Source: a virus (taxonomy: Duplodnaviria; Caudoviricetes). From it: 64,000 bases of DNA. The position numbers and the translations under genes were made by a program. Every line of letters begins with the position of its first letter. The stretch's first letter is position 1. Positions 945 to 46,203 of the stretch are shown piece by piece. The stretch lies in the IMG/VR virus record IMGVR_UViG_3300025316_001101. The stretch is one strand, 5' to 3'. The notes beneath the pieces were generated by a model. That model did not search any database, was not told the origin of the DNA, and saw nothing but the letters and a program-made list of their open reading frames with translations.

Positions 945-966
945 TGGCCATGATGATCAAAAAAAA

Positions 967-1037
967 TGCGGCCGACAAGGATATGGGGTAGTCTTTACGT
1001 CTTTACTTGATGTAGACCACTCCTGCATTCGGCCGCA
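967..1037 (-). ncRNA. Y-RNA-like unit A (short type)
   Basis: 9-bp terminal stem UGCGGCCGA/UCGGCCGCA; GAAUGC...GGUCUACAU...GACUAC...CUUGUC core. Confidence 0.75.
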
Positions 1038-1046
1038 ATACTGCTG

Positions 1047-1124
1047 CGTGGTAGACCTTTGATGGACCTTGCATCTATCCCATTGGATACGCCATCAGAG
1101 GTGGCCACTCCCACCCTATGGTGG
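1047..1124 (-). ncRNA. structured RNA J1 (array-associated)
   Basis: 10-bp hairpin 1056-1065/1092-1101; shares AUAGGGU and GGUCUAC with J2. Confidence 0.4.
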
Positions 1125-1132
1125 TTATATTT

Positions 1133-1192
1133 TGGCTCGACAAAGAGTGACAAGTCTTTGTTATTGATGTAGACCAGTCGGCATTCGAGCCA
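1133..1192 (-). ncRNA. Y-RNA-like unit B (short type)
   Basis: 8-bp stem UGGCUCGA/UCGAGCCA; GAAUGC, GGUCUACAUC, UUUGUC. Confidence 0.75.
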
Positions 1193-1205
1193 TTTGTATT
1201 TACTG

Positions 1206-1333
1206 TTTTGGATTTTAATCTTACCAGACAAAAATCGTAAAGTCTATTGTACTGGGAACATTTAACCCAGTATCTCCGATTGATGGTGGGGATGTAAACC
1301 TTACAAGCATTCTGGTAAGATTGAAATCCAAAA
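1206..1333 (-). ncRNA. Y-RNA-like unit C (long stem, expanded loop)
   Basis: 23-bp terminal stem with one G-U; GAAUGC, GGUUUACAUC, UUUGUC; internal hairpin UACUGGG/CCCAGUA. Confidence 0.7.
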
Positions 1334-1340
1334 TAAAAAG

Positions 1341-1499
1341 TGTGGGTGCCGGGAATTTCACCCAGACCAACGATTTGAAAATGTAGTCCCATCCTGCATT
1401 CGATCTAAACATTCTTTTGCAAGAACATTTGGATTGACAAGGGACGGCGAGACGAACAGCCTTTCGGCATTCGCTGTGCTGATGTTACACTACACCCAC
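1341..1499 (-). ncRNA. YrlA-type tRNA-mimic Y RNA, unit D
   Basis: Acceptor GUGGGUG/CACCCAC+A, D arm GUGU/GCAC, T arm CUGGG-UGAAAUU-CCCGG; anticodon arm replaced by a CUUGUC-hairpin-GAAUGC module. Confidence 0.8.
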
Positions 1500-1522
1500 A
1501 TAAATTTTCAAAAAACAAAAAA

Positions 1523-1597
1523 TAGAAACCTGACAAGAAAACGGCGTAGTCATTTTCATTAATAGTGATGTAGACCACTCCTGCATTCAGGTTTCTA
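1523..1597 (-). ncRNA. Y-RNA-like unit E (short type)
   Basis: 11-bp stem UAGAAACCUGA/UCAGGUUUCUA; core GAAUGCAGGAGUGGUCUACAUCA identical to unit A. Confidence 0.75.
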
Positions 1598-1599
1598 AG

Positions 1600-1767
1600 T
1601 GTCGAGGCCAGGAGTCGCACCTGGACTGGTACTTCCAAAAAGTAAATGTAGTCCCATCCTGCATTCAATCTAAACATTCTTTTGCAAGAATATTTAGATA
1701 GACAAGGGGCGGCGAGACGAACAGCCACCTTGCGGTGGCAAACCGTGCTTCTAAACACTCCCTCGAC
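1600..1767 (-). ncRNA. YrlA-type tRNA-mimic Y RNA, unit F
   Basis: Acceptor GUCGAGG/CCUCGAC+A, D arm, T arm CCAGG-UGCGACU-CCUGG; central module nearly identical to unit D. Confidence 0.8.
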
Positions 1768-1790
1768 AATAAAATTTCAAAGATCAAAAA

Positions 1791-1870
1791 TCAAAATTAA
1801 AACCAGACAAGGGTTCGATAGTCGTCATTTTTCCGATGTAGACCATCTGGCATTCTGGTTTTAATTTTGA
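1791..1870 (-). ncRNA. Y-RNA-like unit G (short type)
   Basis: Perfect 17-bp terminal stem; GAAUGCCAGAUGGUCUACAU...GACUAUCGAACCCUUGUC. Confidence 0.75.
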
Positions 1871-1935
1871 GTCCGACAAGGGTTCGATAGTCGTCACGTT
1901 TTTGATAATGTAGACCATCTGGCATTCGGACTCAA
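1867..1935 (-). ncRNA. Y-RNA-like unit H (short type)
   Basis: 10-bp stem UUGAGUCCGA/UCGGACUCAA; core shared with unit G but a different stem sequence. Confidence 0.75.
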
Positions 1936-1936
1936 G

Positions 1937-2065
1937 AGTTGAAGATGGGATTTGCACCCATAACCTACTGGTTGGATGTAGTTCCAACTACATTTGGGTT
2001 TTAAGGCCCAACAAGGAACGCTGAAACGTTTTGCCGGTCGCTCTATCTAATTGAGCTACTTCAAC
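1937..2065 (-). ncRNA. YrlA-type tRNA-mimic Y RNA, unit I
   Basis: Acceptor GUUGAAG/CUUCAAC, canonical D arm UAGCUCAAUUAGAUAGAGC, T arm AUGGG-UGCAAAU-CCCAU; divergent CUUGUU/AAAUGU module and ACUACAU. Confidence 0.75.
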
Positions 2066-2069
2066 TTAT

Positions 2070-2128
2070 TGTGTAGACCCGCTTCTAATTCCTTTCGGAA
2101 CTAGCCTACCCTATAGGCCGTCCACACA
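2070..2128 (-). ncRNA. structured RNA J2 (array-associated)
   Basis: Closing stem UGUGUGGAC/GUCUACACA; inner CUAGUUCC-GAAA-GGAAUUAG hairpin. Confidence 0.45.
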
Positions 2129-2185
2129 CAGGTTGCCAAGTTATCCCCAGTTCTTGGCTGTAAATTGCTGGGGCAATGTACTCTT

Positions 2186-2213
2186 GATCGCCCGGCCCTG
2201 CGGCCGGGCGATC
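2186..2213 (-). other. 12-bp GC hairpin without U-tract between Ro60 gene and RNA array
   Basis: gatcgcccggcc-ctgc-ggccgggcgatc; no U run on the minus strand. Confidence 0.6.
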
Positions 2214-2224
2214 CCACACTTTAT

Positions 2225-3934
2225 TTACTCGGCTGCCGATTCCTCGACAACTTCTTCTACAACCGGAGCCGCCGAAGCGTCGTCCAGGCTGACATTTTCA
2301 ATCACCTTGACCCAGTGATCCGCATCGTCGCCGCCTTCCATGAATCCGGCAATAACCTGGAACACTTGATCACTGAAGCCACCCACCTGGAGGATGTCCT
2401 GGTGCTGCTTCACTTGGCTGCTTCCCCTCGGGGTGAGGTCGATACAAACCAACTTTGCCCGTGGATTACGCTTCTTGAACGTCTGCCACTCGGTCATCAA
2501 GCCAGTTGCATTACCATAGGCATAACTGTAACCGCTGTCAACCCAACTTTCGTTGTCGCTGATGAAGACTACAAGGTCGCCCTTTGCCTTCTTTGCATTC
2601 AGTTCTGCCAATGGCAAGCTGCAATTCGTTCCACCACCACCATAACGAGCCAACTTTTGCGCATTCGTCATGATGCTGTCCCTCGAATTCAAGTCGTGCT
2701 TGTAGGTTCGAGTGTCGAACGGAATTACATTTGCCTGCTCGTTAGTACGCAACATGGTCACAGCGAACAGGGCCGCTACGTCCACGCACGAAACCGCCGA
2801 AGATGCACCCATTCGGTATCCCGTTGCCGGGCTACTCATTGAGCCTGAAGTATCGACGCAGACATACATTTCGCCGGAAATCTTCGGCACATTTTGTACC
2901 GCAATTTCCATTGCGTCCTGCAACGCCAAACTAATCTGAGTCGGTACGCCAGTCGCCGCCTTGAAAGCCATCAGCAGTTGGTACGGGAATACCCGTGCCC
3001 GCTCAATTTGCTTCTTGTCACGGAGACGTTCAGCAATAATCTGAACCAATTCCGGGTCACTCAATACGTCGTGTCGCTGGAAGGTGTTCAAATTCATTCT
3101 CGTCATCTGCCACGGGGCAGTACGAGCAATTTGCTTCCACTCGGCTGGGCCGATGCCCAACGAGTCCAACATACGGAAATCAACCCTCGGCACAGTGCCT
3201 TCCTTGGTCCGCTTGTAATTTTCGTAATCCTGCACCAACTGCGGAAGCAGGCTATAATCATGTTCGTAGCAAACGCCTTGAGCGTTTACATATACTTCGC
3301 CATTCTTAGCCAAAGTTACGAGCTTACCGTTGCGAACTTCCGCACCCTTGAGGTATGCGAACATCGCAGCCTTAGCTTCACTGGACGGACGTGGCCGTGC
3401 CATACGAAGAATGTCACGCATGGTCGGATCGTTACCGATAGACGCCTTGAACAAAGCTTCGCCGTTCATACGGTCGAACCAATCACGGATTGCGTGCTTG
3501 ATCGCCCACGAAGTCATATTGATCGGCTTACCGGTGATGGCACCACTACGGCCCATCTGAATAAAGTTTCGCAGCATCTTACCATTGTCGATTACTCGAC
3601 GGAAGACCTTACGGAACAACTTCGGATCGATCTGCGACAATACAACCGTCAAGAACGCTGGCATGTCCTTCATGTATGCCTTGTCACGGCAATAGACCGC
3701 AGTCTTCGCCAGGAACAACGGATCGTCAATCAATGCTTGCGCAGCATCCTTGGCAATCTTTAGATTGTCTTCGGCAGATACGTAGTAAGTGCCGTTGAAG
3801 CAGTTAGTCGCTGCAATTTGAGCCAGCGCATGCTTCGAGGAAAATGAATACGCCTTGCCACCAGCCGCATTAACGGTATCCGCTACCGGTGCAATCGGGG
3901 TACGCTGAGACGCAAAAAGGTTCTTGTTAGCCAT
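2225..3934 (-). CDS. rsr: Ro60/Rsr RNA-binding protein (TROVE + vWA)
   Basis: N-AGG-AY start, ARTAPWQMTRMNLNTF-RH, RVFPYQLL-A, vWA DTSGSM and GGGTNCS motifs; acidic tail. Confidence 0.95.
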   Translation of the reverse strand: MANKNLFASQRTPIAPVADTVNAAGGKAYSFSSKHALAQIAATNCFNGTYYVSAEDNLKIAKDAAQALIDDPLFLAKTAVYCRDKAYMKDMPAFLTVVLSQIDPKLFRKVFRRVIDNGKMLRNFIQMGRSGAITGKPINMTSWAIKHAIRDWFDRMNGEALFKASIGNDPTMRDILRMARPRPSSEAKAAMFAYLKGAEVRNGKLVTLAKNGEVYVNAQGVCYEHDYSLLPQLVQDYENYKRTKEGTVPRVDFRMLDSLGIGPAEWKQIARTAPWQMTRMNLNTFQRHDVLSDPELVQIIAERLRDKKQIERARVFPYQLLMAFKAATGVPTQISLALQDAMEIAVQNVPKISGEMYVCVDTSGSMSSPATGYRMGASSAVSCVDVAALFAVTMLRTNEQANVIPFDTRTYKHDLNSRDSIMTNAQKLARYGGGGTNCSLPLAELNAKKAKGDLVVFISDNESWVDSGYSYAYGNATGLMTEWQTFKKRNPRAKLVCIDLTPRGSSQVKQHQDILQVGGFSDQVFQVIAGFMEGGDDADHWVKVIENVSLDDASAAPVVEEVVEESAAE

Positions 3935-4021: not shown

Positions 4022-4049
4022 ATTATACGTAGCCTTTTTAGAAAGTCAA
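4022..4049 (-). promoter_or_regulatory. sigma70-type promoter TTGACT-N16-TATAAT for rsr
   Basis: attata 4022-4027 and agtcaa 4044-4049 on +. Confidence 0.7.
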
Positions 4050-4092
4050 CACCCTAAACATTATTTTTCCGAAACTCATTCCTGATGACGTA

Positions 4093-4121
4093 ATTATACT
4101 CTGGCCTAAACCACTTGTAAA
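4093..4121 (-). promoter_or_regulatory. second sigma70-type promoter TTTACA-N17-TATAAT for rsr
   Basis: attata 4093-4098 and tgtaaa 4116-4121 on +. Confidence 0.6.
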
Positions 4122-5429: not shown

Positions 5430-7675
5430 TACAACATTTTCTTGAGGGCATCAACGTCGATAATCGGGATATTCAATTCCTTGGCCTTATCACTCTTAGC
5501 ACCGGAGCCATCGCCTGCTACCAAGAAACTAATCTTCTTACTCACACTGCTATGGCATTTGCCACCAAGAGCTTCGATCTGCTCCTCCCAGTGTCGCTTG
5601 CCTTCATCAAATCCACCCGACACACAGAAATTCTTGCCAGTCAACTTGCCAACCTTGGGAGACTCCAATTCCACATGTTCCAACAGAGCATCCAATTCCT
5701 TGTGGTGATCACCCAAATAATCGTAGACAATATGTGCTGTTTTCGCACCAACACCCTCCACGGCTTCCAACTCGGCTTCGGTCGCACTACGAATTTTATC
5801 AAAATTTCCGAAATGGTCAACCAAAGCCTTGCCTGCCGACTTTCCAGCAGTCTCAATCCCAAGTGCCGCAAAGAACAGAGCGGCAGAGATCTTCTTCTTG
5901 TGTTTACAAGCCGCAGCAATCTTGTCGGCCAATTCACCATCATCTTCGATCTTTTCCGGGTGATCAATTCCATGAATTGTGCCCACGATCAATAAAGCCT
6001 GCCGCAAACTAAGATCGGAACGATTTACAATCTCAGATTGACTAAGATTATAAAAATCAGCACGATTCTTTACACCTACCGCAATCAACTGTTCCATCTT
6101 GGATTCGCCAATACCAAGCACGCCAAGAGTAGCAAAATAGTGACAGAATCCAGTGATCTGTTTGGCCGGGCAATAATCACTGTAACAAAACAATTCCCAC
6201 ATTTCTTCTCGACCACCACTCGCTGGAGTGTGTTCAAGTGTAGTGATACCACCACAACTTGGACACGTCTTTGGATATTCCGGCGTGCCCTTACATTGAT
6301 CACTGACAACTCCAACCACCTTGGGAATAATATTTCCCGCCTTCAAAACTCTGATGGTTGTTCCAACATCAATTTTATTGCGGATCATATAACCCGCATT
6401 ATGCAATGTTGCACGACCAACATCTGTATCTGCCAACCGTACCTTGTCTTTGAAAATAGCAACAGGCTTAATCACCCCAGTGCGGCCAGTATTCCACTCC
6501 ACTGATTTGATAATCGGCTGCGCCTCTTCCTCGGCAAATTTCCAAGCAATTTTACCTTTGGGGTTTGCTGTGACTGCACTGCCATGCTTACCCAATTGTT
6601 CTTGAGCATCCAAATCGTTTACACAAATAACAATCCCATCAACCCGATAATCCAATTCAGAAACATGCTGTTCAAGCGTATCAAGCAGATAGAAGTTAAA
6701 AAGCGAAACACGAACGAATGGCACACCAAGCATTTGATTTACATACTTAGCCCGTTCAATCTCCGTTTTATACGAAGGCTGAGCAATACCTTCAATACCG
6801 TGGCCCATGAATGACAACCGATGATGTTCGGTCTTGGACGGATCAGTGATCTGTTTAATACCGCCCATCGCAGCAGCACGCTCATTAGCAAATTCTGGTT
6901 CGCCACATTTCTTCTTCCACGCCTGCACCTTCGGAAGATCGGCCCTTCTGATAATCAACTCGCCAGTAATACGACAAGTAATGGGCTCTTTTAATTGCTG
7001 AGGAATTGACTTAATGTATTTAACGTTCTCGGTCACGTCTTCCCCTTCAATGCCACGTCTCGGCCGCAGACCAGCCTTGACCAAAATCCCCTTCTCATAA
7101 TACAAACCAATTGCCACACCGTCCCATTTGTAAGACATGCAGAAATACTCACGGGGATATGTAAAAACTTTGCCGTTATATTTGCGCTCGGCAACATCCA
7201 CCTTCTTATCTTCTACTGGCTTAACCGTCACGGGATCAACCAAAACAATTTTCTTGGCAGACAAATCATAGACCGGACCCTTCTTGACGGCATCACTGGC
7301 CTCGGCTACACAGTCCTCCATCCATTTGAAAAGCATACCTTCCTTAACATCCAACTTTTCATGACTAGCCTTCTCAATAGAAGTCATGGGAGGATGATGC
7401 TTGACTTTCTTACCAACCGCATCGTCCTTACCGGCAGTAATATTGTCAAATACAGTAGAATTGGGCCGGTCGTCCTTCAACGCCTGCCGCATGAAATCAT
7501 AGCGAGGATCAGGAACAGGATGGACACGATCAAGCTTGAATTCTGTGACCAACCAATCCGGCGTACTGACAGGCAACATACAATCCTGCCCATCGTTGTA
7601 AAGTGAATCCAGGCAACCAATTACGGATTCCAATTCATCCAACTGATCGTTCGTATATTTCGTCTGTTTTGACAT
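5429..7675 (-). CDS. ligA: NAD-dependent DNA ligase
   Basis: KWDG adenylation motif, GEDVT-N, DGIV, AWKF, GRTG, ATLHN, C4 zinc finger, HhH repeats, BRCT. Confidence 0.95.
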   Translation of the reverse strand: MSKQTKYTNDQLDELESVIGCLDSLYNDGQDCMLPVSTPDWLVTEFKLDRVHPVPDPRYDFMRQALKDDRPNSTVFDNITAGKDDAVGKKVKHHPPMTSIEKASHEKLDVKEGMLFKWMEDCVAEASDAVKKGPVYDLSAKKIVLVDPVTVKPVEDKKVDVAERKYNGKVFTYPREYFCMSYKWDGVAIGLYYEKGILVKAGLRPRRGIEGEDVTENVKYIKSIPQQLKEPITCRITGELIIRRADLPKVQAWKKKCGEPEFANERAAAMGGIKQITDPSKTEHHRLSFMGHGIEGIAQPSYKTEIERAKYVNQMLGVPFVRVSLFNFYLLDTLEQHVSELDYRVDGIVICVNDLDAQEQLGKHGSAVTANPKGKIAWKFAEEEAQPIIKSVEWNTGRTGVIKPVAIFKDKVRLADTDVGRATLHNAGYMIRNKIDVGTTIRVLKAGNIIPKVVGVVSDQCKGTPEYPKTCPSCGGITTLEHTPASGGREEMWELFCYSDYCPAKQITGFCHYFATLGVLGIGESKMEQLIAVGVKNRADFYNLSQSEIVNRSDLSLRQALLIVGTIHGIDHPEKIEDDGELADKIAAACKHKKKISAALFFAALGIETAGKSAGKALVDHFGNFDKIRSATEAELEAVEGVGAKTAHIVYDYLGDHHKELDALLEHVELESPKVGKLTGKNFCVSGGFDEGKRHWEEQIEALGGKCHSSVSKKISFLVAGDGSGAKSDKAKELNIPIIDVDALKKML

Positions 7676-16738: not shown

Positions 16739-18055
16739 ATGAGTTGTAATATATCTGCCAAATTGCACTTCAGGAGATTCCTAATGGAAATGGAAACGAC
16801 CCCAGATCAGAAGGACCGCATTCGAACCATCATACAAAAGCTTATGGCTGATGATAAAAATTGGTTCAATCAGCAAGAAATCGCAGTCGGAAACAAAGGT
16901 CCGTACTGGGTGCTGAACTATATGCAGGGCTCCCGCAATGAATATAATCAACTTGTCCGTGGTATGATTATTCGTAAGCCAAATGGACAAACTATTAATG
17001 ATCCACTCGACCTGATTGTTAGCTTCCCATTTATGCGGTTCTACAATAAAGGCGAAAAAGAAGCTGCCCCTGTTGATTTTTCAAAAGCAGACATGCTAGA
17101 AAAACTAGATGGGTCAATGGTGGGAGTGTTTTTCCCAGATGGCGATCCCTCTAAGCCACAATACCATACTAGAAAAATGGTATCTGCCCATAAACCCGAC
17201 ATGGATATGATGATTGGCGGCTTTGAAACAGCCAAATCCGGCCCACAGCCATTCATGAAAATCATCGGAGAATACGTGAATAAACTACACTTCACTAAAG
17301 AAGATGTAGCTATGACCTATGTTTTTGAATTTATCCATGAAATTAGCAAGGTTCTAACCAGCTACTCGCCAGAAAAATATGGATTACACCTATTAGGTGC
17401 AAGAAACATACGCACTCACCGTGAATTAACAGAAGATCAATTAGATGTAATAGCTCGTAGAATAGGTGCCCCACGTCCACGTCGTTGGAATACTACTGGC
17501 GACGAGGCAGAAATCCGTCAAATGATGGATGAAATTGGCAAAGATACCGAAAACTTTGAAGGGGCTGTGTTCCGAGACCCGGAAGGCAACCGAGTGAAAC
17601 TAAAACGTGATGATTATGTCAAGCTACACCATTTGCTTGACAAACTATCCTTCAAACATTTAATCCCCAAGGTCTTGGAAGGGGAATCCGAGGAAATCAC
17701 TGCTTACTTCCCATCAGCCAAAAAAACCATTGAAACTTTCCAAAAAGCATTTGACGATTATATCGACAAAGCAGTAGTGGCTGTACGTAAATATCATGAT
17801 CAGAAATTAGATCGTAAAACCCTAGCCATGAAGATATTTCATGGAACTGGGGAAGATCTAGACCAGTACATGCGATCCCTGGTGATGAAACATTACGAAA
17901 ATGGTGATGAAGATTCCGTCCGACAAATAATCACAAGAGATCTTAAAACGGTTGCCCTCGGTCGAAATGGCGTTGGCGGCAGTCCACAAAGATTAATGGA
18001 AATTATTGGTATCCATGATGACGAATCGGACGAGAAACAAGACAAAGAGCCTTAA
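16739..18055 (+). CDS. Rnl1-type ATP-dependent RNA ligase
   Basis: EKLDGS (motif I), HTR, YVFEF, EGAVF, VKLK nucleotidyltransferase motifs; PFMRFYN-GE. Confidence 0.85.
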   Translation: MSCNISAKLHFRRFLMEMETTPDQKDRIRTIIQKLMADDKNWFNQQEIAVGNKGPYWVLNYMQGSRNEYNQLVRGMIIRKPNGQTINDPLDLIVSFPFMRFYNKGEKEAAPVDFSKADMLEKLDGSMVGVFFPDGDPSKPQYHTRKMVSAHKPDMDMMIGGFETAKSGPQPFMKIIGEYVNKLHFTKEDVAMTYVFEFIHEISKVLTSYSPEKYGLHLLGARNIRTHRELTEDQLDVIARRIGAPRPRRWNTTGDEAEIRQMMDEIGKDTENFEGAVFRDPEGNRVKLKRDDYVKLHHLLDKLSFKHLIPKVLEGESEEITAYFPSAKKTIETFQKAFDDYIDKAVVAVRKYHDQKLDRKTLAMKIFHGTGEDLDQYMRSLVMKHYENGDEDSVRQIITRDLKTVALGRNGVGGSPQRLMEIIGIHDDESDEKQDKEP

Positions 18056-45839: not shown

Positions 45840-45852
45840 CCAGAAATTTTAG

Positions 45853-46203
45853 TGGAGGCGGGCGTAATCGAAACGCCGTCCAGAGGTACTCTTGCTCCGA
45901 CCTCTACGTGTGTAGTTTGTTGTATTTATCTCATCGCATTGAACTACAGCTAACAAAAGCTCAAATTGACCAGCGACTTTTTTCTTGTTTTGATTCTTGT
46001 CGCCCGTACCAAAACATACCGACTATTACGGCGAGACTTCGGACTTCATCGGTTGGAATTCCTTGTCTCGGCTGCCCAATCTCTTAGGCCGCAACTGCAA
46101 AAGTGTTTGCAATTAGGTTTTGGTCTGCTTTTAACGTGGCCTGCTGACCAACCACGACACGCCATCTGAGTTCGACTTACCCTGTCGAAACCTTGTCGCC
46201 CCC
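45853..46203 (-). ncRNA. ssrA: tmRNA, tag (A)ANTFAVAA
   Basis: 5' GGGGGCGACAAGGTTTCGAC; acceptor GGGGGCG/CGCCUCC with G3-U70; T arm; tag ORF 46110-46084; CCA not encoded. Confidence 0.95.

What the first reader, a model, noticed from the sequence alone, without database searches (positions are those of the whole stretch)
1341..2065. Three circularly permuted tRNA-mimic Y RNAs interleaved with short Y units
Seen: units D, F and I have 7-bp acceptor stems starting with G, a discriminator base, a D arm and a 5-bp T arm (loops UGAAAUU, UGCGACU, UGCAAAU), with no encoded CCA. The anticodon arm is replaced by the Ro-type module in reversed order (CUUGUC, hairpin, GAAUGC). D and F share a nearly identical module but have different acceptor stems. 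Known: this is the YrlA architecture. Inference: tRNA-like ends would let RNase P/Z cut a polycistronic transcript into single RNAs, and distinct acceptor stems could decoy different tRNA-directed enzymes such as anticodon nucleases, toxins or synthetases.
Basis: partly seen in the sequence, partly recalled or inferred. Interest (0 to 1): 0.72.

Follow-up and report, generated by a model that had tools for sequence, protein, structure and literature searches.

The report
tRNA-shaped Y RNAs beside phage Ro60
A giant freshwater phage encodes a Ro60 protein followed by ten small partner RNAs, and three of them are built like ordinary tRNAs with free ends whose anticodon arm is replaced by the Ro60-binding helix, the mirror-image layout of the known bacterial YrlA RNAs, so they can probably be cut out and finished by the cell's tRNA-processing enzymes.

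Summary
On the minus strand, downstream of a Ro60/Rsr gene (2225-3934), lie about ten Y-RNA units in a single promoter-to-terminator unit. Units D (1341-1499), F (1600-1767) and I (1937-2065) have a 7-bp acceptor stem, a discriminator, a D arm and a 5-bp T arm. A hairpin-closed Ro-binding helix (CUUGUY, hairpin, RAAUGY..CUACAU) replaces the anticodon arm. The fold is under selection. A natural strain variant carries 12 substitutions in F. None breaks a pair, and three are full compensatory doubles in the acceptor and T stems. Homologous units occur in two other huge-phage lineages.

These RNAs are related to YrlA but are not the YrlA architecture. YrlA has a closed acceptor loop and its ends at the Ro stem, whereas these units are its circular permutation back to the tRNA layout. 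After the discriminator all three read CUU, like the phage's true tRNAs (CUU or CUA), and the next Y RNA starts 3-8 nt further on. This points to maturation by RNase P, RNase Z and the CCA-adding enzyme, and to tRNA-style punctuation of the operon. That step is inferred, because no RNA data were available. The decoy idea is untested.

I rate this a new variant of a known kind. Other readers of this scan noted the same array on this same stretch. On other DNA, the eight scan notes returned described acceptor-closed forms.

The parts
4022..4121 (-). Two sigma-70-like promoters upstream of rsr (TTGACT-16-TATAAT at 4049-4022; TTTACA-17-TATAAT at 4121-4093)
   Evidence: Each matches 11 of 12 consensus positions. 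No comparable promoter lies between rsr and the array.
2225..3934 (-). rsr: Ro60 ortholog, 569 aa
   Evidence: Pfam vWA_Ro60 (1.7e-17) and TROVE (1.5e-6). It is 41-57% identical to Rsr of other huge phages and about 50% identical to bacterial Rsr.
2186..2213 (-). GC-rich hairpin just after the rsr stop codon, without a U tail
   Evidence: Read from the sequence; Rfam gives only chance-level hairpin matches. Its role as stabiliser, processing site or partial terminator is not determined.
2066..2185 (-). Structured leader element ('pre') ending in GGGUCUACAC; not a Y unit by the models used
   Evidence: fold. It has no R1 or Rfam hit. It supplies the 5' leader of unit I.
1937..2065 (-). Unit I: tRNA-topology Y RNA. 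Acceptor 2059-2065 / 1938-1944; discriminator U at 1937; CUUGUU 2010-2015; closing hairpin 1996-2009; AAAUGU 1990-1995; CUACAU 1976-1981; T arm 1945-1961.
   Evidence: Rfam tRNA 43.8 bits; fold z = -3.5; YrlA-half profile E = 1.9e-6; homolog at L009 7700-7829.
1867..1932 (-). Unit H: short Y RNA in the normal order (GAAUGC..UACAU..CUUGUC)
   Evidence: R1 81.4 bits; weak Rfam YrlA match of 25.4 bits. It starts 4 nt after the discriminator of unit I.
1795..1860 (-). Unit G: short Y RNA
   Evidence: R1 76.6 bits; terminal stem covaries with those of the other short units.
1600..1767 (-). Unit F: tRNA-topology Y RNA. Acceptor 1761-1767 / 1601-1607; discriminator A at 1600; CUUGUC 1701-1706; 34-nt closing hairpin 1667-1700; GAAUGC 1661-1666; CUACAU 1646-1651; T arm 1608-1624. 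It also has an extra GCAA-capped hairpin and a variable-arm hairpin.
   Evidence: Fold z = -4.95. Of 12 strain substitutions, none breaks a pair and 3 are compensatory doubles. YrlA-half profile E = 3.5e-6.
1524..1596 (-). Unit E: short Y RNA
   Evidence: R1 72.7 bits; Rfam YrlB 29 bits, below threshold. It starts 3 nt after the discriminator of unit F.
1341..1499 (-). Unit D: tRNA-topology Y RNA. Acceptor 1493-1499 / 1342-1348; discriminator A at 1341; CUUGUC 1436-1441; closing hairpin 1402-1435; GAAUGC 1396-1401; CUACAU 1381-1386; T arm 1349-1365. It also has an extra GAAA-capped hairpin.
   Evidence: Fold z = -3.7; YrlA-half profile E = 3.2e-7; frame descriptor hit.
1205..1335 (-). Unit C: long-stem Y RNA in the normal order, with a larger internal domain
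   Evidence: R1 30.7 bits; fold. Two of three strain substitutions fall in pairs and keep them.
1133..1190 (-). Unit B: short Y RNA
   Evidence: R1 67.6 bits.
1038..1132 (-). Element X: structured RNA of another kind, ending in GGUCUACCAC
   Evidence: Fold only; no model hit. It resembles the 'pre' element.
959..1037 (-). Unit A: short Y RNA whose terminal stem plus a run of 8 U doubles as the terminator of the operon
   Evidence: R1 73.8 bits; U run read from the sequence. The next promoter (944-917) belongs to the downstream gene.

Best explanation
D, F and I are partner RNAs (Y RNAs) of the phage Ro60/Rsr protein, built in the native tRNA topology. The acceptor stem is open, as in a tRNA. 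The helix that Ro60 binds is closed by a hairpin and stands where the anticodon arm would be. They are circular permutations of YrlA.

They are transcribed with rsr and seven other small RNAs as one roughly 3-kb transcript. The tRNA frame makes the tRNA end-processing enzymes cut them out: RNase P at the 5' side, then RNase Z or exonucleases plus the CCA-adding enzyme at the 3' side. The 3' cut also creates the 5' end of the short Y RNA that begins 3-8 nt downstream, so the three units act as tRNA-style punctuation for the array. The mature RNA then holds Ro60 on its closed helix and presents a tRNA-like domain with a free 3' end as the effector-binding module.

Shown: the structure, its selection, its homology to YrlA, its conservation in other huge phages, and the operon layout.
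Inferred: the cleavages, CCA addition, Ro60 binding and the effector.
For: Structure and selection:
- MFE folds recover the cloverleaf frame, with z from -3.5 to -4.95.
- In strain X5, unit F carries 12 substitutions. None breaks a pair. Three are full compensatory doubles: acceptor A5-U163 to G-C, acceptor G6-C162 to A-U, and T stem G147-C157 to A-U. The GNRA loop stays GNRA.
- Random placement of the substitutions gives P = 0.0025 for no broken pair and P = 2e-4 for three or more doubles.

Family:
- Rsr lies upstream.
- The motifs GAAUGC, UACAU and CUUGUC align to the Rfam YrlA/YrlB consensus.
- The profile of closed phage YrlA 5' halves hits the 3' halves of D, F and I.
- Their D stems, GCUC/GAGC and GUGU/GCAC, are two of the three commonest in closed phage YrlAs.

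Conservation:
- L009 7700-7829 scores 47.2 bits with Rfam tRNA and shares its D arm and module with unit I.
- L024 6046-6179 and 6184-6311 are also homologous.
- Both lie in arrays mixed with short Y units.

Processing:
- There is no promoter between rsr and the array, and unit A with its U run ends it.
- The trailer after the discriminator is CUU in D, F and I, CUU or CUA in all four true tRNAs of the same record, and CUA in the L009 and L024 units.
- Leaders are AU-rich, with U or A at position -1.
- The downstream unit starts 3-8 nt after each discriminator.

Precedent:
- M. smegmatis YrlA, which has a 7-bp acceptor, is cut by RNase P and receives CA in vivo (PMC4201824).
Against: - No RNA data exist for this phage, so no end is mapped.
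- The tRNA elbow is non-canonical in all three units. The T loop has G at position 55, and D has A at 56. The D loops lack the GG pair. This could weaken recognition by RNase P or other elbow readers.
- The tRNA covariance model does not score D or F.
- Binding of Ro60 to a hairpin-closed helix has not been shown for any Y RNA.
- The host and its RNase Z/CCA pathway are unknown.
Confidence: 0.6

Rival explanations
1. The tRNA shape is the function, not a processing handle. With different acceptor stems, D, F and I act as decoys or sponges for tRNA-directed host enzymes, such as anticodon nucleases, acceptor-end-modifying toxins or synthetases. Alternatively, they recruit tRNA-repair enzymes to Ro60. 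This is the first reader's second inference, and it is compatible with the processing model.
For: - Three units have three different acceptor stems but near-identical Ro modules in D and F.
- The genomic context includes a T4 Rnl1-like RNA ligase at 16739-18055 (T4_Rnl1_C at 27.4 bits), a phage tmRNA and tRNA clusters.
- A Ro60-like phage protein, Bas63 gp130, counters the ppl defence system experimentally (PMC11482910).
- Ro/TROVE in jumbo phages has been tied to RNA repair (PMC7824862).
Against: - None of the 349 tRNAs from rsr-encoding phage loci or this record has an acceptor stem equal to those of D, F or I; the nearest differ by 1-2 bases.
- F's acceptor sequence changes between strains by compensatory substitution, so pairing rather than sequence identity is what is kept.
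- There is no anticodon loop, so anticodon nucleases have nothing to cut.
- The elbow nucleotides are non-canonical.
Confidence: 0.2
2. They are real tRNA genes interrupted by a Y-RNA-like insert, which is removed to give decoding tRNAs.
For: - Unit I passes the Rfam tRNA threshold at 43.8 bits.
- The same record has a tRNA with a 21-nt insert in its anticodon loop.
Against: - D and F have no anticodon stem or loop at all.
- In unit I and L009u the residues flanking the insert give no U33 and no consistent anticodon.
- The insert carries the conserved Ro-binding motifs and is conserved across phages whose Rsr proteins are only 42-49% identical.
- The insert is far too small for a group I intron. 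To my knowledge bacteria have no other tRNA splicing route.
Confidence: 0.04
3. The open frames are an artefact of reading phase in a tandem array of ordinary closed YrlA units, as in bacterial rsr loci.
For: - In bacterial loci such as L234, L237 and L246, tandem closed YrlAs with repeated acceptor strands also satisfy the open-frame descriptor.
- The 3' acceptor strand of unit I can pair 6 of 7 positions with the 5' strand of unit F (hand count from the strand sequences).
Against: - In the window the units are separated by short Y units.
- No T arm precedes unit I and no D arm follows unit D, so no closed unit can be completed.
- Each acceptor pairs 7 of 7 positions with its own partner.
- The compensatory changes in F lie in F's own two strands.
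- The Ro helix of D and F is closed by a near-perfect hairpin of 13-14 base pairs that keeps pairing between strains, not by a U-rich spacer.
Confidence: 0.04

Closest known systems
YrlA (Rfam RF02553), the tRNA-like Y RNA bound by bacterial and mycobacteriophage Rsr (Chen et al. 2014, PMC4201824; Wang et al. 2018, 10.1101/312249)
   Same: - Encoded next to rsr on the same strand.
- Has the Ro-binding bulged helix with GAAUGC, UACAU and CUUGUC.
- Has a T arm, a D arm and an acceptor-like stem.
- The D stem sequences GCUC/GAGC and GUGU/GCAC are shared.
- The 5' half of closed phage YrlAs is sequence-similar to the 3' half of D, F and I.
   Different: - The topology is the reverse. In YrlA the acceptor is a closed loop and the RNA ends lie at the Ro stem. 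Here the acceptor is open and the Ro stem is hairpin-closed.
- The Rfam YrlA model does not match D, F or I.
- The T loops have G55, and the D loops lack GG.
- Three copies sit in one ten-unit array.
[quoted passage not shown]
   Same: It has a 7-bp acceptor stem that ends up open, the first C of the tail is encoded, and tRNA-processing enzymes act on a Y RNA.
   Different: In M. smegmatis the open acceptor arises by cutting a closed loop, which gives a two-piece RNA with both ends of the molecule open. Here the open acceptor is hard-wired in the gene and the RNA stays one chain.
One-piece and circularly permuted two-piece tmRNA; circularly permuted tRNA genes of red algae and archaea (cited in 10.1101/312249)
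   Same: They are a precedent that one tRNA-like RNA family exists in nature in both circular permutations.
   Different: They belong to different RNA families with different functions, and no Ro60 is involved.
tRNA punctuation of polycistronic transcripts (mitochondrial model; tRNA genes within bacterial rRNA operons). This comparison rests on my own knowledge.
   Same: tRNA-shaped elements between other RNAs give RNase P and RNase Z their cutting sites.
   Different: Here the punctuating elements are themselves non-decoding Ro60 partner RNAs.

Membership tests
YrlA / bacterial Y RNA (RF02553) | Encoded adjacent to rsr (Ro60) on the same strand | tested here: met
   rsr lies at 2225-3934 (-) and the array at 959-2065 (-). 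All 53 short-Y hits in 81 related loci are on the rsr strand.
YrlA / bacterial Y RNA (RF02553) | Ro-binding helix with the conserved 5'-strand motif (CGAAUG-like) and its partner strand | tested here: met
   GAAUGC..CUACAU and CUUGUC are present in D and F. Unit I has AAAUGU and CUUGUU, with a compensatory closing pair. The short units align to the Rfam YrlA/YrlB consensus.
YrlA / bacterial Y RNA (RF02553) | tRNA-like T arm and D arm with conserved stems | tested here: met
   T and D arms appear in the MFE folds. The D stems equal those of closed phage YrlAs. The profile of closed YrlA halves hits D, F and I. The loop nucleotides G18/G19 and U55 are not conserved.
YrlA / bacterial Y RNA (RF02553) | Acceptor-like stem closed by a loop, with RNA termini at the Ro stem | tested here: not met
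   The acceptor strands lie 128-167 nt apart at the two ends of each unit. The Ro stem is closed by a 14- or 34-nt hairpin.
YrlA / bacterial Y RNA (RF02553) | Score at or above the Rfam gathering threshold (69 bits) | tested here: not met
   D, F and I give no hit at E <= 10. Only short unit H matches, at 25.4 bits. This is expected for a permuted order.
YrlA / bacterial Y RNA (RF02553) | Bound by Rsr in vivo | not testable with these tools
   Needs immunoprecipitation or a gel-shift assay.
tRNA (RF00005) | Cloverleaf scoring above the gathering threshold | tested here: inconclusive
   Unit I scores 43.8 bits against a threshold of 29, but with a 61-nt insert. D and F give no hit. ARAGORN by default calls none of the three.
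tRNA (RF00005) | Anticodon stem with a 7-nt loop, U33 and an anticodon | tested here: not met
   D and F have no anticodon stem-loop. Unit I and L009u have a short stem but a 62-63-nt 'loop' without U33.
tRNA (RF00005) | Canonical elbow (G18, G19, U54, U55, C56, A58) | tested here: not met
   The T loops are UGAAAUU, UGCGACU and UGCAAAU, all with G55. The D loops are AACAUCA, UUAGAA and AAUUAGAUA, none with GG.

The most novel reading that the evidence does not exclude
The open-ended units receive CCA and behave as chargeable or EF-Tu/ribosome-competent tRNA ends tethered to Ro60. Alternatively, they serve as bait for defence toxins that act on the tRNA 3' end. In either case the phage would couple Ro60 directly to the translation or tRNA-repair machinery.

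A second novel reading concerns evolution. These units could be the missing monomeric form from which closed YrlAs arose by tandem duplication. At the L024 u1/u2 junction, the 3' acceptor strand of u1 pairs 6 of 7 positions with the 5' strand of u2, so the junction can also be drawn as a closed YrlA.
Probability: 0.2. Interest if true: 0.85.

Novelty: new variant of a known kind. Interest (0 to 1): 0.62.

Why it matters
Why the effector domain of bacterial Y RNAs mimics tRNA has been an open question since 2014. All described YrlAs lack a free acceptor end, which rules out most tRNA transactions.

A natural, selected version with a genuine tRNA-type 5' and 3' end in one covalent chain makes the question directly testable. 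One can ask about RNase P and RNase Z cleavage, CCA addition, charging, EF-Tu binding and toxin binding.

It also shows how a phage can pack ten Ro60 partner RNAs behind one promoter and still release them. It gives a concrete candidate for the ancestral form in the 'Y RNAs evolved from tRNAs' model.

Phage Ro60-like proteins have begun to appear as counter-defence factors (PMC11482910), so their RNA partners matter for phage-host conflict.

Tried and rejected
- RNA evidence: no RNA holder was listed for the array, so ends and expression could not be examined. Only DNA contigs were laid.
- A nucleotide search of the phage collection with the locus found no match.
- A covariance model of the open topology was not built. 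MAFFT misaligned the acceptor and D arms and the module of the six units. I used a position-defined descriptor with shuffled controls instead.
- The motif scan AATGY..TACAT..T-arm over viral contigs gave 41 closed units and 10 open frames. Of the ten, three were ordinary tRNAs and three were one intron-containing tRNA of a giant eukaryotic virus. These were set aside.
- The scan for D/F-type T loops gave coding-sequence chance hits plus one closed YrlA array (L214). It found no further open unit.
- Apparent open frames in bacterial rsr loci were rejected as phase artefacts of tandem closed YrlAs. The L234 array begins with a Ro 5' strand and ends with CUUGUC.
- Matching the acceptor stems to 349 tRNAs found no identical stem.
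- Rfam RNase P RNA was not found in the 102-kb record that holds the window.
- Myxococcus phage Mx1, the closest cultured phage by Rsr (43% identity), showed no Y RNA within 5 kb by R1 or Rfam.
- Literature searches found no description of open-acceptor Y RNAs. The library does not hold the two Sim and Wolin reviews.

Full report
**Where it lies.**
The window is the reverse strand of a 102-kb IMG/VR virus record. CheckV estimates the record is about 20% complete, so this is a huge phage. Freshwater and lake metagenomes from several studies hold the stretch. The finding lies on the minus strand.

A 569-aa ORF at 2225-3934 carries the Ro60 vWA domain and the TROVE domain. Two 11-of-12 sigma-70-type promoters precede it, at 4049-4022 and 4121-4093. 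No comparable promoter follows until 944-917, which belongs to the next gene.

Between these lie a GC-rich hairpin (2186-2213), a structured leader, and units I, H, G, F, E, D, C, B, X and A. Unit A ends in a stem plus eight U. rsr and the array are therefore one transcription unit, and the small RNAs must be cut out of it.

**The observation.**
Each has a 7-bp acceptor stem starting with G, two linker bases, a 4-bp D stem, a 5-bp T stem with a 7-nt loop, and a discriminator. None has an encoded CCA.

Where the anticodon arm should be, D and F have CUUGUC, a 34-nt hairpin, then GAAUGC..CUACAU. Unit I has CUUGUU, a 14-nt hairpin, then AAAUGU..CUACAU. The pair that closes the motif has changed from C-G to U-A.

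Unconstrained folding recovers the frames, with z-scores of -3.7, -4.95 and -3.5. Rfam's tRNA model hits unit I at 43.8 bits with a 61-nt insert. ARAGORN calls nothing unless introns are allowed.

The short units A, B, E, G and H share GAAUGC..UGGUCUACAU..GACUA..CUUGUC, and their terminal stems covary. A model built from them scores them at 68-81 bits and unit C at 31 bits.

**Is the fold selected?**
Contigs of a related strain (run X5) cover the whole array. Unit F differs from the window at 12 positions. Mapped on the reference MFE structure, none breaks a pair:
- Six substitutions form three fully compensatory doubles: acceptor A5-U163 to G-C, acceptor G6-C162 to A-U, and T stem G147-C157 to A-U.
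- Two keep pairs in the closing hairpin through G-U intermediates.
- One adds a pair to that hairpin.
- Three fall in loops, and the GCAA loop becomes GUAA.

Random placement of 12 substitutions gives no broken pair in 0.25% of trials and three or more doubles in 0.02% of trials. This is direct evidence that the acceptor stem, T stem and closing hairpin of the open form are maintained.

**Relatives.**
Rsr homologs were found in about 80 viral contigs, most of them 100-500 kb long. Short Y RNAs lie beside them in many loci, always on the rsr strand and at most three per locus. The window has six such hits plus the three tRNA-shaped units, the largest array in this sample.

A descriptor for a tRNA frame of 95-260 nt found 19 frames in 743 kb, against 1.8 in shuffles. 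Nine of them carried the permuted module, against 0.1 in shuffles. Besides the window, two lineages have such units:
- L009 7700-7829 (the same contig as L086 and L171). It scores 47.2 bits with Rfam tRNA and shares its D arm, variable region and GAACUACAU with unit I, but has a different acceptor stem.
- L024 6046-6179 and 6184-6311 (identical in L026). These have a GAAUAC variant of the motif and canonical GG and UUCGAAU loops.

In both lineages the units sit in a promoter-to-terminator array mixed with short Y units, as they do here.

**Relation to YrlA.**
Many relatives carry ordinary closed YrlAs. They score 39-62 bits with RF02553, below its gathering threshold of 69 bits. In a motif scan of viral contigs, 41 hits were closed. 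The only genuine open hits were the window, L009 and L024.

The order of elements in D, F and I is acceptor 5', D arm, CUUGUC, hairpin, GAAUGC..CUACAU, variable region, T arm, acceptor 3'. This is exactly YrlA cut open at its acceptor loop and closed at its Ro stem.

Several results support homology:
- A profile built from the 5' halves of 17 closed phage YrlAs (Ro 5' strand through T arm to acceptor 3' strand) matches the 3' halves of D, F and I over its full length, with E = 3e-7 to 3.5e-6. It matches the short units only over the Ro strand.
- The D stems GCUC/GAGC and GUGU/GCAC are two of the three commonest D stems in closed phage YrlAs.
- A G55 T loop also occurs in some closed units (L214).

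The units are therefore YrlA relatives in the opposite permutation. They fail the closed-acceptor criterion and the Rfam model, as expected.

**A caveat that was checked.**
Bacterial rsr loci, whose Rsr is about 50% identical and which come mostly from Acidobacteriota, Verrucomicrobiota, Myxococcota and Planctomycetota, also gave open frames. Those are tandem closed YrlAs whose repeated acceptor strands can be read in either phase. The L234 array begins with a Ro 5' strand and ends with CUUGUC.

In the window the phase is not ambiguous, for four reasons:
- The units are separated by short Y units.
- Nothing upstream of I or downstream of D could complete a closed unit.
- Each acceptor pairs 7 of 7 positions only with its own partner.
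- The compensatory changes lie in F's own two strands.

**How it probably works.**
The four true tRNAs of the record are followed, after the discriminator, by CUU or CUA. D, F and I are followed by CUU, and the L009 and L024 units by CUA. Across 349 tRNAs of the rsr-encoding phage loci and this record, CU-N is the commonest trailer at 23%, and CCA is not among the fifteen commonest trailers.

The leaders of D, F and I are AU-rich, with U or A at position -1. The next unit begins 3-8 nt after each discriminator.

M. smegmatis YrlA has a 7-bp acceptor, is cut by RNase P in vitro and in vivo, and receives CA (PMC4201824).

I therefore infer that D, F and I are matured like tRNAs and at the same time punctuate the transcript. 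Binding of Ro60 to the closed helix is inferred from the motif only.

The elbow is degenerate in all three units (G55; no GG in the D loop; A56 in D). This is the main structural doubt.

**What the tRNA end is for remains open.**
The neighbourhood holds a T4 Rnl1-like RNA ligase, a phage tmRNA and tRNA genes. A Ro60-like phage protein counters a defence system in E. coli phage Bas63 (PMC11482910). A decoy or repair-recruiting role is therefore plausible.

Two points argue for recognition of shape rather than of a particular tRNA identity. No tRNA with a matching acceptor was found, and F's acceptor sequence drifts between strains.

**Literature.**
I found no paper describing Y RNAs with an open acceptor and a closed Ro stem. 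Wang et al. [quoted passage not shown] They speculate that some might be processed towards the tRNA form. The units here are that form, encoded directly.

Noticed in passing
window 45850-46203 (-): Phage-encoded tmRNA with tag peptide ANTFAVAA (Rfam 140.9 bits; also called by ARAGORN).
   Followed up: no
window 16739-18055 (+): A 438-aa protein with the C-terminal, tRNA-specificity domain of T4 RNA ligase 1 (Pfam T4_Rnl1_C at 27.4 bits, just above the cut-off of 27). It is a possible tRNA-repair ligase, 13 kb from the Ro60 operon.
   Followed up: partly
window 2066-2185 and 1038-1132 (-): Two structured elements at either side of the array that are not Y units. Both end in GGUCUAC(A/C)C paired to an upstream G-rich strand. 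They may be a third RNA class or processing elements.
   Followed up: no
window 1445-1475 (-), inside unit D: The extra hairpin of unit D (GCGAAUGCC-GAAA-GGCUGUUCGU) carries a second CGAAUGC motif. It looks like a miniature Ro-type helix. Unit F has an unrelated GCAA-capped hairpin at the same place.
   Followed up: no
L009 about 7548-7620: At the head of the L009 Y array, just after its promoter, lies a tRNA-shaped RNA. It has a 7-bp acceptor (CGGGUCG/CGACUCG), a D arm and a UUCGAAU T arm, but only a 4-bp stem with a 5-nt loop in place of the anticodon arm. Rfam did not call it at gathering threshold.
   Followed up: no
L007 5632-5719: An 88-nt tRNA (Rfam 43.7 bits) with a 24-nt anticodon 'loop' containing a hairpin, directly upstream of two short Y RNAs next to rsr. 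It may belong to the hairpin mini-insert family noted elsewhere in this scan.
   Followed up: no
L024 6046-6311: Two open units lie in tandem. The 3' acceptor strand of the first pairs 6 of 7 positions with the 5' acceptor strand of the second across a 4-nt spacer. The junction can therefore also be drawn as a closed YrlA. This is a living example of the dimeric-tRNA model for the origin of YrlA.
   Followed up: partly
L024 5629-5759 and L091 5270-5366: Further hybrids with an acceptor stem, a T arm and Ro-type motifs but no D arm. L024 'a' has the permuted module. L091 has GAAUGC..UUACAU but no recognisable CUUGUC.
   Followed up: no
window 1378-1500, run X3 record 7: A 233-nt contig from another lake sample matches unit D with 8 substitutions and 15 gap positions, and continues into a T arm CCAGG-UGCAAUU-CCUGG. 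This is a further D/F-type variant, present either in a related phage or as an unseen paralog.
   Followed up: no
L093 (Myxococcus phage Mx1, OR576727.2 51915-63561): Mx1 has the closest Rsr of any cultured phage (43% identity), and the gene sits among tRNA genes. Neither the short-Y model nor Rfam found a Y RNA within 5 kb. Two small 'hypothetical protein' CDS directly downstream of rsr (6697-7153) deserve a check as possible RNAs.
   Followed up: partly
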